Below, one piece after another: positions 4,863 through 5,504 of a stretch of DNA of 21,912 nt (position 1 is its first letter; each line of letters opens with the position of its first letter). The notes under the pieces were generated by a model, which searched no databases, had not been told where the DNA came from, and saw only the letters and a list, made by a program, of their open reading frames with translations. The position numbers and the translations under genes are program-made. Source of the stretch: a virus (lineage: Duplodnaviria > Heunggongvirae > Uroviricota > Caudoviricetes). The stretch spans positions 1 through 21,912 of the IMG/VR virus record IMGVR_UViG_2778261446_000009. One strand, 5' to 3'.

Positions 4863-5504
4863 ATGAATTTTGACGATCAATTCCCATCAAGAGTATCTCT
4901 GGCAAGACAGTCCAGGGGTATGACGCAGGCGCAGTTGTCAAAATTAGCTGGTGTTGTTCAACGTCAAATAGCTGCATACGAGGGTGGTGAGGCTAAACCA
5001 CGGCTTCGGGTATTGCAGGCATTAGCCAACGCATTAGGTACTACGGCTGAGTGGTTAGCTCTAGGTGAAGGTCAGGGTCCGGGAACAAAAAACGTCATGC
5101 CTGACGTTCTGGTAAAGCAAATACCAATCCTCAAACTAGATGAAGTTATGCATTACCTAAACACAGGTGAACATTCATCGTCTAGATTTCATCCGGCAAT
5201 ATACAATGTTGGTGACTCTGCATTTGCATTGACTATTGAAGGTGAAGCTATGACTACAAGTTCAGGTATTAGCTTTCCCAGAGGATCGGTTGTCACGTTC
5301 AGCCCTCTAGTAAAAGCTAAAAGCAAAGATTATGTAATAGCATCATTGGATAAAGAGCAAATATTGAGCTTCAAACAGGTTTACATTGGTGAAATAGAGA
5401 CAAACCTAGTATCCCTAAACCCAATGTATCCTAATATTCTTGTTAGAAATGAAGATGTTAGTATTTTGGCAACCGCAGTTTACCTTGAAATCCCGTTGCT
5501 TTGA
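4863..5504 (+). CDS. CI/LexA-like repressor: N-terminal XRE-type HTH plus C-terminal S24-peptidase-like domain that appears catalytically inactive
   Basis: HTH segment RVSLARQSRGMTQAQLSKLAGVVQRQIAAYEGGEAKPRLRVLQALANALGTTAEWL. C-terminus aligns by eye to lambda cI (DSAFxLxxEGxxMT...SFPxG...FKxx...LNPxYPxI). GEAM stands where the GxSM catalytic-Ser motif is expected, and no Ala-Gly site is seen in the linker. AT-rich, and antisense to the late operon. Confidence 0.7.
   Translation: MNFDDQFPSRVSLARQSRGMTQAQLSKLAGVVQRQIAAYEGGEAKPRLRVLQALANALGTTAEWLALGEGQGPGTKNVMPDVLVKQIPILKLDEVMHYLNTGEHSSSRFHPAIYNVGDSAFALTIEGEAMTTSSGISFPRGSVVTFSPLVKAKSKDYVIASLDKEQILSFKQVYIGEIETNLVSLNPMYPNILVRNEDVSILATAVYLEIPLL

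What the first reader, a model, noticed from the sequence alone, without database searches (positions are those of the whole stretch)
4863..5504. CI-like repressor with an apparently dead S24 domain, antisense to the late operon
The protein has an XRE-type HTH and a C-terminal domain that aligns by eye to the lambda cI/LexA autoprotease domain. At the nucleophile position it reads GEAM rather than GxSM, and the linker has no Ala-Gly (or Cys-Gly) cleavage site, while the Lys (FKQ) is retained. Such repressors cannot self-cleave on RecA activation and are typically inactivated by antirepressors. Its position divergent from arc/ant suggests a self-contained repressor-antirepressor circuit. It sits where P22 carries sieA/mnt, in AT-rich DNA.
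Basis: partly seen in the sequence, partly recalled or inferred. Interest (0 to 1): 0.6.

Follow-up and report, generated by a model that had tools for sequence, protein, structure and literature searches.

The report
Non-cleaving cI-like repressor guarding antirepressor genes
A P22-like prophage carries a lambda-cI-type repressor that has lost its self-cutting site and sits back-to-back with antirepressor genes; it most likely keeps them silent, as the unrelated Mnt protein does in phage P22, and is part of a mobile regulatory cassette found in many enterobacterial phages.

Summary
ORF 4863-5504 (+) encodes a 213-aa protein with an XRE-type HTH and a lambda-cI/LexA-type (Peptidase_S24) C-terminal domain. 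Profile alignment puts Ala129 at the nucleophile Ser, keeps the Lys (K171), and puts Val95-Met96 where lambda cI has its Ala-Gly scissile bond.

The protein is not the phage's main immunity repressor; the identical gene in phage JEP4 coexists with a separate C2. It is the divergent partner of a 57-aa Arc-like protein and two antirepressor genes.

In 89 of the 91 sequences examined (the window plus 90 related loci) the same arrangement recurs: HTH-S24 gene, about 99 bp of control DNA, then the Arc-like gene, followed in most loci by a conserved RNA hairpin and an antirepressor. It sits in unrelated phage backbones.

The antirepressor cargo is swapped independently of the repressor. This argues against the antirepressors targeting this repressor.

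A conserved motif over the -35 of the antirepressor promoter covaries with the first residue of the HTH recognition helix.

Across 58 variants, 23 have lost Ser and/or Lys and 57 lack the Ala-Gly. The domain is nevertheless under purifying selection.

Best reading: an Mnt-like, SOS-blind maintenance repressor of an immI-type cassette. It is a new variant of a known kind, of moderate interest.

The parts
4863..5504 (+). HTH-S24-like repressor gene, 213 aa. HTH at residues 14-65 (4902-5057); S24-like domain at residues 108-206 (5184-5480).
5247..5249 (+). Codon 129, GCT (Ala), at the position of the catalytic Ser (lambda S149, LexA S119). The 81%-identical relative L007 has TCT (Ser) here.
5373..5375 (+). 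Codon 171, AAA (Lys), the retained general-base Lys (= lambda K192).
5145..5150 (+). Codons 95-96, Val-Met, at the position of the lambda Ala111-Gly112 scissile bond. The model predicts a helix here (residues 92-101).
4764..4862 (.). 99-bp divergent control region. Its length is conserved at 97-100 bp in most related loci (range 91-112).
4813..4841 (-). Near-consensus sigma-70 promoter for the Arc-like/antirepressor operon: -35 TTGACT at 4841-4836, 17-nt spacer, -10 AATAAT at 4818-4813. TTGAC plus a -10-like element at 16-17 nt is present in most related loci.
4826..4841 (.). Candidate operator of the HTH-S24 protein: palindrome ACTCA-GTA-TGAGT (4826-4838) plus the conserved TGAGTCAA (4834-4841) over the -35. 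The motif covaries with recognition-helix residue 33.
4786..4798 (.). Tandem (A/T)CTCA repeats 8 bp apart, in the early transcribed region of the antirepressor operon. Candidate operator of the Arc-like protein; assignment inferred.
4590..4763 (-). 57-aa ribbon-helix-helix protein of the Arc superfamily (PHROG 10182); first gene of the antirepressor operon.
4547..4582 (-). Conserved GC-rich hairpin between the Arc-like gene and the first antirepressor gene. 5 of 6 pairs show compensatory changes in 24 loci. It occupies the position of the P22 sar antisense RNA and terminator.
3890..4516 (-). Antirepressor 1 (Bro-N + P22_AR_C; PHROG 245 'Ant'). Likely start is the ATG at 4516, preceded by AAGGAAA.
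3074..3802 (-). Antirepressor 2 (PHROG 1726 'anti-repressor'). Likely start is Met30 of the listed ORF.

Best explanation
The protein is the maintenance repressor of a mobile immI-type antirepressor cassette. It is a functional analogue of P22 Mnt built on a lambda-cI/LexA scaffold. Proposed mechanism: it binds through its 434/cI-type HTH to a site overlapping the -35 and spacer of the strong leftward promoter (4813-4841). That promoter drives the Arc-like gene and the two antirepressors, so binding keeps them off in the lysogen and on superinfecting copies of the cassette. The C-terminal S24-like domain is kept as a folding and oligomerisation domain but cannot self-cleave: it has Ala at the nucleophile and Val-Met at the scissile bond. 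Silencing of the antirepressors is therefore not relieved by RecA/SOS. The antirepressors act on other repressors (the phage's C2 or those of co-resident prophages), not on this protein. The Arc-like protein would shut the operon down after a burst on infection. Shown here: the domain content, the residue substitutions, the conserved gene arrangement, the promoter consensus, the motif-HTH covariation, the cargo swapping and the purifying selection. Inferred: DNA binding at that site, repression, oligomerisation, lack of cleavage, and the targets of the antirepressors.
For: Residues and fold. LexA S119A, LexA G85D and lambda repressor K192A are deposited in PDB as engineered mutants; that these mutants do not cleave rests on established knowledge of LexA and lambda repressor, not on a result here. 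Arrangement: in every locus read with gene calls the gene is divergent from a 57-aa gene plus an antirepressor. The backbones are unrelated: P22-like phages, lambda-like and other siphoviruses, a site next to an integrase, and a prophage with its own cI/N region. In all, 89 of the 91 sequences examined (the window plus 90 loci) have the Arc-like gene, and the spacer is 97-100 bp in most. Not the main repressor: JEP4 carries the identical gene plus a separate C2/cro/c1 region. Promoter: TTGACT, 17 nt, AATAAT on the minus strand, conserved across loci. Operator: all 13 variants with Arg at helix-3 position 1 have TGTGTCAA. Those with P, S, H, T, K or A, and most with Gln, have TGAGTCAA. The Arg and non-Arg types are interleaved on the tree with at least 4 sister contrasts, and the motif does not track the Arc-like beta-strand type. 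Some loci have clear palindromes at this place: the window (ACTCAgtaTGAGT) and L061 (TTGACACataaaGTGTCAA). Cargo uncoupled: repressors that are 95-100% identical pair with antirepressors that are 7-35% identical, and 99.5%-identical antirepressors pair with 41%-identical repressors. Spearman rho is 0.09 for repressor vs antirepressor against 0.61 for repressor vs Arc-like protein. The antirepressor families differ between loci. Domain still functional: dN is 0.19-0.27 in the S24 domain while synonymous sites are saturated. No SOS input: there is no LexA box in the control region.
Against: No experiment. No convincing promoter for the repressor gene itself was found. The second half-site of the proposed operator is not conserved in position or spacing across loci, and one Gln-type clade has TATGTCAA instead. 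The operator and the HTH codons lie within about 150 bp of each other, so covariation could reflect co-inheritance by recombination rather than recognition. The phage also encodes a true Mnt homologue (2581-2838), so the division of labour between the two is unclear. What ever relieves repression, if anything, is unknown.
Confidence: 0.6

Rival explanations
1. Self-contained switch: the protein represses the neighbouring antirepressors and is itself inactivated by them, giving a bistable, SOS-independent loop.
For: Tight and conserved linkage of the gene with antirepressor genes. A non-cleavable repressor needs some other way to be inactivated. Precedent: non-cleavable repressors controlled by antirepressors in Salmonella Gifsy phages (PMC3121763, listed).
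Against: Identical repressors sit next to unrelated antirepressors of different domain families, and vice versa. This is hard to reconcile with a specific protein-protein pair. The phage has a separate C2 for the antirepressors to act on. P22 Ant is known to act on C2-type repressors in trans (as summarised in PMC3064807).
Confidence: 0.15
2. Still damage-responsive. The protein is cleaved at a non-canonical site, or in trans by an intact S24 protein (C2, LexA, UmuD) or another protease, so the antirepressors remain SOS-inducible.
For: The Lys and the overall active-site fold are retained. 35 of 58 family variants keep both Ser and Lys, and one (L002/P0016) keeps Ser, Lys and Ala-Gly, so the ancestor was probably cleavable.
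Against: Ala is at the nucleophile position. Val-Met is at the scissile position, and 57 of 58 variants lack Gly at P1'. The region is predicted helical rather than an extended loop. Repeated independent loss of Ser and/or Lys in 23 of 58 variants looks like relaxed selection on catalysis.
Confidence: 0.07
3. A second immunity or exclusion regulator with targets elsewhere. It would control other phage or host promoters (for example read-through into the tailspike gene, or the downstream membrane ORF 5565-5894) rather than mainly the antirepressor operon.
For: An exact 14-nt copy of the operator-like sequence lies inside the gp10-like gene at 12035-12048. ORF109 follows on the same strand with a good ribosome-binding site. 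P22 immI regulators are thought to influence tailspike expression (PMC2629481).
Against: The copy at 12036 carries a synonymous change in JEP4. ORF109 is absent from JEP4 and occurs without the repressor in Salmonella phages. The only partner conserved in 89 of the 91 sequences is the Arc-like/antirepressor operon.
Confidence: 0.08

Closest known systems
P22 Mnt (maintenance repressor of the immI region)
   Same: Same genomic slot, between gene 16 and the tailspike gene. Same orientation, divergent from an Arc-type gene followed by ant. Same inferred job of keeping ant silent in the lysogen. The cassette also has a structured element where P22 has sar.
   Different: No homology. Mnt is a ribbon-helix-helix tetramer; this is an HTH plus S24-like protein. 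A true Mnt homologue is also present in the window (2581-2838), next to the tailspike gene.
Lambda cI, P22 C2, 434 repressor and LexA (self-cleaving HTH/S24 repressors)
   Same: Homologous two-domain architecture. The C-terminal domain superposes on lambda cI at 1.8 A with 32-34% identity. Lys and the Gly-x-x-Met frame are kept.
   Different: Ala replaces the Ser nucleophile and Val-Met replaces Ala-Gly. It is not the main immunity repressor and is located in the late-operon moron.
Engineered non-cleavable mutants LexA S119A / G85D and lambda cI K192A (PDB 1JHH, 1JHF, 2HNF)
   Same: The window protein naturally carries the equivalents of the Ser-to-Ala change and of the loss of the P1' Gly.
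   Different: It arose naturally, is fixed in 28 of 5,426 complete E. coli genomes, and is under purifying selection.
Non-cleavable repressor plus LexA-controlled antirepressor systems (Gifsy phages, N15, 186 Tum)
   Same: Antirepressors are used in place of repressor self-cleavage.
   Different: In those systems the non-cleavable protein is the main repressor and ant is under a LexA box. Here no LexA box is present and the non-cleavable protein sits on the ant promoter.
'HS-1 type ant moron' of P22-like prophages (Villafane et al. 2008, PMC2629481)
   Same: Probably the same locus. The P22-like prophage of E. coli HS carries this cassette at 98.7% identity. That paper noted that HS-1 has antirepressor genes with no recognised arc and must be controlled differently from P22.
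   Different: The paper, as far as it was read here, offered no regulator. This analysis identifies an Arc-superfamily gene, the HTH-S24 protein and the conserved control region.

Membership tests
Peptidase S24 / LexA-cI self-cleaving repressors | S24 (LexA/cI C-terminal) fold | tested here: met
   Pfam PF00717 E 1.3e-12. Foldseek to lambda cI C-terminal domain, rmsd 1.8 A over 98 columns.
Peptidase S24 / LexA-cI self-cleaving repressors | Nucleophile Ser (lambda S149, LexA S119) | tested here: not met
   Ala129, codon GCT at 5247-5249.
Peptidase S24 / LexA-cI self-cleaving repressors | General-base Lys (lambda K192, LexA K156) | tested here: met
   Lys171 aligned to K192.
Peptidase S24 / LexA-cI self-cleaving repressors | Ala-Gly or Cys-Gly scissile bond in the linker strand | tested here: not met
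   Val95-Met96 aligned to A111-G112. No AG or CG in the linker.
Peptidase S24 / LexA-cI self-cleaving repressors | RecA*-stimulated or alkaline self-cleavage | not testable with these tools
   Needs biochemistry.
P22 immI-type antirepressor control region | Located in the 'ant moron' between the gene 16 and gene 9 homologues | tested here: met
   gp16 homologue at 5914-7755 and tailspike at 553-2448. Concept from PMC2629481.
P22 immI-type antirepressor control region | Maintenance repressor gene divergent from an arc-ant operon | tested here: met
   Arrangement met in 89 of the 91 sequences examined. The protein itself is not homologous to Mnt.
P22 immI-type antirepressor control region | Arc-type ribbon-helix-helix as first gene of the operon | tested here: met
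   Family profile vs P22 Arc: hhalign probability 78%, E 1.8e-5. PDB hits to AmrZ and Arc, E 9e-5 to 7e-3. Superfamily level only.
P22 immI-type antirepressor control region | Antirepressor of the P22 Ant / Bro-N type | tested here: met
   Bro-N plus P22_AR_C. PHROG 245 and 1726.
P22 immI-type antirepressor control region | sar antisense RNA between arc and ant | tested here: inconclusive
   Conserved hairpin with compensatory changes. No Rfam sar match; only a weak SymR-like hit, E 0.81.
LexA-controlled antirepressor systems (Gifsy, N15, 186) | LexA box at the antirepressor promoter | tested here: not met
   No CTGT-N8-ACAG with up to 1 mismatch in 4764-4862.
XRE / 434-cI type HTH DNA-binding domain | Five-helix HTH_3 domain | tested here: met
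   PF01381 E 9.3e-13. 434 repressor N-terminal domain E 4e-6. Predicted helices 7-18, 22-29, 33-41, 48-57, 62-67.

The most novel reading that the evidence does not exclude
The HTH/pseudo-S24 protein, the 99-bp control region, the Arc-like protein and the hairpin form a previously undescribed portable regulatory chassis. Enterobacterial phages of many types use it to carry interchangeable antirepressors. Its S24-derived domain, freed from self-cleavage, would have been repurposed as a sensor for a non-SOS signal (a ligand, a host protein or the Arc-like partner). This would give these prophages an induction or anti-immunity route independent of DNA damage.
Probability: 0.15. Interest if true: 0.7.

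Novelty: new variant of a known kind. Interest (0 to 1): 0.45.

Why it matters
Antirepressors let one phage switch on another and underlie prophage cross-talk in polylysogens. How their own expression is held in check outside P22, P1 and the LexA-controlled cases is poorly known.

This locus points to a widespread alternative control module in Escherichia, Salmonella, Yersinia, Klebsiella, Providencia, Morganella and Xenorhabdus prophages. In it, a protein of the self-cleaving cI/LexA lineage has lost the cleavage site in nearly all variants and the catalytic dyad in about 40%, yet stays under selection.

It is a clean natural example of a protease domain turned into a non-enzymatic scaffold. 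It also warns that automatic labels for this gene, such as 'LexA family' or 'repressor C2', imply an SOS sensitivity that the sequence contradicts.

Finally, it supplies a testable recognition code: helix-3 residue Gln or Arg against TGAGTCAA or TGTGTCAA.

Tried and rejected
- **LexA box at the antirepressor promoter:** none found. Hits elsewhere in the window are at chance level.
- **Rfam search of 2000-6500 for sar or other RNAs:** nothing significant. The only hit is a SymR-like match at E 0.81.
- **Sigma-70 promoter for the repressor gene itself:** none reached the scan threshold. By-eye candidates (TATGGT at 4851-4856, which would give a leaderless mRNA; GATTAT at 4812-4817) were not convincing. 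The conserved AAGGTG ribosome-binding site argues against a leaderless transcript.
- **A uniform palindromic operator across loci:** palindromes cluster about 8-13 bp and about 42-45 bp downstream of the -35, but arm sequence and spacing vary. Only the -35-proximal half-site is general.
- **The invariant Phe3-Asp4 codons (TTTGAC) as a DNA-level half-site:** rejected, because the Asp wobble base varies between GAC and GAT.
- **A second operator at 12035-12048:** an exact 14-nt match, but it lies in a coding sequence and is changed synonymously in JEP4.
- **NCBIfam:** no curated family reaches its cut-off for the repressor, the Arc-like protein or the antirepressors.
- **Literature:** four searches found no characterisation of this protein or cassette. 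The closest is the 'ant moron' description in PMC2629481.
- **Pseudogene or decaying remnant:** rejected on dN versus saturated dS and on near-identical (at least 98.7%) DNA in 28 complete E. coli genomes.

Full report
**What is there**

The window is the late region of a P22-like (Lederbergvirus) prophage. The minus strand carries terminase, portal, coat, the gp10/gp26-type proteins, the ejection proteins and a tailspike. Between the gp16 homologue (5914-7755, -) and the tailspike (553-2448, -) lies a block of lower GC, 38-44% against about 50%. Its genes are listed below from the gp16 side to the tailspike side.

| Feature | Coordinates | Strand |
|---|---|---|
| ORF109 | 5565-5894 | + |
| Gene of interest | 4863-5504 | + |
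| Intergenic control region | 4764-4862 (99 bp) | . |
| 57-aa Arc-like gene | 4590-4763 | - |
| Antirepressor 1 (Bro-N + P22_AR_C) | 3890-4516 | - |
| Antirepressor 2 (PHROG 1726) | 3074-3802 | - |
| ORF73 | 2853-3074 | - |
| Mnt homologue (Pfam Arc domain, E 9.5e-15) | 2581-2838 | + |

An identical protein, with 99% identical DNA over 4500-5574, is in Escherichia phage JEP4 (MT740315). There it is annotated 'repressor protein C2' from an internal start.

- Pfam finds HTH_3 (residues 14-65) and Peptidase_S24 (residues 108-206), both well above threshold.
- phmmer against PDB aligns the C-terminal half with the lambda cI C-terminal domain. Query EGEAM lies over lambda EGNSM, and query SFKQ over lambda TFKK.
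- A profile of 23 family members aligned to full-length lambda cI (hhalign, probability 99.6%) gives three equivalences. A129 matches S149, K171 matches K192, and 'IPILKLDEVMHY' lies over 'YPVFSHVQAGMF', so V95-M96 matches the A111-G112 scissile bond.
- An AlphaFold model (pLDDT 86.5) has the five-helix HTH and the beta-rich domain. The latter superposes on lambda cI C-terminal domain crystal structures at 1.8-2.0 A over 98 columns.
- The stretch that should hold the scissile bond is predicted as a helix (residues 92-101) rather than an extended loop. This is a model feature only.
- LexA S119A, LexA G85D and lambda K192A exist in PDB as engineered mutants. That they are non-cleavable is established knowledge of these proteins, not a result obtained here. 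The window protein combines natural equivalents of the Ser and Gly changes.

**It is not the phage's immunity repressor**

JEP4 has a normal immC region (C2, cro-like, c1) 14 kb away, in addition to this gene. In one relative (L002) the host prophage has its own cI (Phage_CI_repr + S24) and an N-like gene.

**A conserved cassette**

- A search of 5.8 billion proteins returned only 22 clusters.
- Scans of genome and viral contigs added 82 loci from Escherichia/Salmonella-type prophages, Yersinia, Klebsiella, Tatumella, Providencia, Xenorhabdus and Morganella.
- In every locus with gene calls, the gene is divergent from a 57-aa gene followed by an antirepressor. The backbones are as different as P22-like podoviruses, lambda-like tail-gene clusters, another siphovirus and an integrase-proximal site.
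- By my own ORF extraction, 89 of the 91 sequences (the window plus 90 loci) have the 57-aa gene, and the spacer is 97-100 bp in most, with a range of 91-112.
- The 57-aa protein is a ribbon-helix-helix of the Arc superfamily: profile vs P22 Arc E 1.8e-5, PDB AmrZ E 9e-5, PDB Arc E 1.5e-4 to 7e-3.
- Between it and the antirepressor gene most loci have a GC-rich hairpin. In a sample of 24 loci, 5 of its 6 pairs show compensatory double changes. P22 has the sar antisense RNA and terminator at this position, but Rfam's sar model does not match.
- The architecture therefore parallels P22 immI (mnt | arc-sar-ant), with an HTH/S24-like protein in the Mnt position. Villafane et al. 2008 called the region between genes 16 and 9 the 'ant moron'. 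They remarked that the HS-1 type, the E. coli HS prophage, which carries this cassette at 98.7% identity, must control its antirepressors differently from P22 (PMC2629481).

**What the repressor acts on**

- The minus strand of the spacer carries a near-consensus promoter: TTGACT, 17 nt, AATAAT. TTGAC plus a -10-like element at 16-17 nt is present in most loci.
- The HTH recognition helix is almost invariant (RQIAAYE) except for its first residue, Q33 in the window.
- All 13 variants with Arg there have TGTGTCAA over the -35. Variants with Pro, Ser, His, Thr, Lys or Ala, and most with Gln, have TGAGTCAA. One Gln clade has TATGTCAA.
- On a neighbour-joining tree the Arg and non-Arg types are interleaved, with at least 4 sister contrasts. 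The motif does not follow the beta-strand type of the Arc-like protein.
- In the window the motif is part of a perfect palindrome, ACTCA-GTA-TGAGT (4826-4838). In L061 it is TTGACAC-ATAAA-GTGTCAA.
- The pattern ACTCANNNTGAGT, allowing one mismatch, occurs 4 times in the window against 0.6 expected. Two of these are in the spacer.
- A second cluster of repeats lies in the early transcribed region: tandem (A/T)CTCA units 8 bp apart at 4786-4798 in the window, and palindromes with an ATGAGT core in other loci. I assign it tentatively to the Arc-like protein.
- Caveat: the motif and the HTH codons are only about 150 bp apart, so joint inheritance could mimic covariation.

**The antirepressors are interchangeable cargo**

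| Comparison | Repressor identity | Antirepressor identity |
|---|---|---|
| L045 vs L009 | 100% | 7% |
| L060 vs L064 | 96% | 10% |
| L061 vs L067 | 96.5% | 11% |
| L019 (window-type repressor) vs L040 | 99.5% | 27% |
| L043 vs L064 | 41% | 99.5% |

- Over all pairs, Spearman rho is 0.09 for repressor vs antirepressor and 0.61 for repressor vs Arc-like protein.
- The cargo belongs to different families: Bro-N, P22_AR_N/C, pRha+ANT, KilA-N+ANT, and once T5orf172.
- The conserved unit is the regulatory chassis: repressor, spacer, Arc-like gene and hairpin.

**Loss of the protease features is family-wide**

| Feature (58 distinct sequences) | Count |
|---|---|
| Ser and Lys both kept | 35 |
| Ala + Lys | 6 |
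| Ala + Arg | 10 |
| Ser + Arg | 3 |
| Ser + Met | 2 |
| Gly + Arg | 1 |
| Gly + Val | 1 |
| Ala-Gly at the scissile column | 1 (L002/P0016) |

- The other scissile-column pairs include Ala-Arg, Ala-Ser, Phe-Ala and Val-Met.
- The losses fall in several separate clades.
- In the window's own clade the 81%-identical L007 has TCT (Ser), whereas the window and L008 have GCT (Ala), a single-base difference.
- The simplest reading is that the cleavage site went first and the dyad has since drifted.
- The domain is nevertheless constrained. dN is 0.19-0.27 while synonymous sites are saturated, and near-identical (at least 98.7%) DNA is present in 28 of 5,426 complete E. coli genomes.
- There is no LexA box in the control region. 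Neither known route of SOS input to antirepressors is therefore visible.

**Mechanism proposed (confidence 0.6)**

- The protein binds over the -35 and spacer of the antirepressor promoter and keeps the operon silent in lysogens, as Mnt does in P22.
- Its S24-derived domain serves folding and oligomerisation only.
- The Arc-like protein provides autogenous shut-off after infection.
- The antirepressors act in trans on C2-type repressors.

Rivals:
- A self-contained repressor/antirepressor loop (0.15).
- Residual or trans cleavage (0.07).
- Main targets elsewhere (0.08).

Open points:
- The repressor's own promoter.
- The role of the co-resident Mnt homologue.
- Whether anything ever relieves repression.

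**Novelty**

- Non-cleavable phage repressors, antirepressor modules and the ant moron are all known.
- I found no description, in four literature searches or in NCBIfam, of three things taken together. These are the recurrent pairing of an HTH/pseudo-S24 protein with an Arc-like gene as a portable controller of swappable antirepressors, its near-universal loss of the Ala-Gly site, and the helix-3/operator covariation.
- I rate it a new variant of a known kind, with interest 0.45.

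Noticed in passing
window 4547-4582 (sense strand is minus): Conserved GC-rich hairpin between the Arc-like gene and the first antirepressor gene. 5 of 6 pairs have compensatory changes across 24 loci, and the loop is conserved (GCGnnAAC). It is followed by a T-run on the + strand, so it may terminate an antisense RNA analogous to P22 sar. Rfam sar does not match; there is only a weak SymR-like hit on the + strand at 4514-4585 (E 0.81).
   Followed up: partly
window 2581-2838 (+): A true Mnt homologue of 85 aa (Pfam Arc domain, E 9.5e-15; contains SKPSPVSGYRDEEERLA). 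It lies next to the tailspike gene and divergent from it, and convergent with the antirepressor operon. The phage therefore carries both Mnt and the HTH-S24 protein. This may be a remnant of an older P22-type immI region.
   Followed up: partly
window 5565-5894 (+): ORF109 has a GTG start after AAGGAGG, an N-terminal hydrophobic helix and a coiled coil (PHROG 8100, function unknown). It lies just downstream of the repressor on the same strand. It is about 90% identical in DNA to a gene next to gp16 in Salmonella phages SE1 and ST160, and is absent from JEP4, so it is not part of the cassette. It is a candidate prophage-expressed membrane protein.
   Followed up: partly
window 12035-12048: An exact 14-nt copy (CACTCAGTATGAGT, minus strand) of the operator-like palindrome lies inside the gp10-like gene, coding for T-Q-Y-E. 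About 1e-4 such matches are expected by chance (my estimate from sequence length). JEP4 has a synonymous mismatch there, so it is probably coincidence, but a distant second site was not excluded.
   Followed up: partly
window 3074-3802 (-) and 2853-3074 (-): A second antirepressor (PHROG 1726; annotated KilA in JEP4) and a 73-aa ORF with no family match follow the first antirepressor in the same operon.
   Followed up: no
L012-L016, L053, L057-L077 and others (relatives at 40-45% identity): Many relatives have a C-terminal extension of about 60 aa beyond the S24-like domain, ending in a coiled-coil-like ...RL..LE.KLD.L... segment. The window protein and its close relatives lack it.
   Followed up: no
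L001 (JEP4) 20073-20642: The GenBank CDS for the identical gene starts 24 codons downstream of the conserved MNFDD start and is named 'repressor protein C2'. RefSeq calls the E. coli copies 'helix-turn-helix domain-containing protein' or 'LexA family transcriptional regulator'. Both the start and the names are probably misleading.
   Followed up: yes
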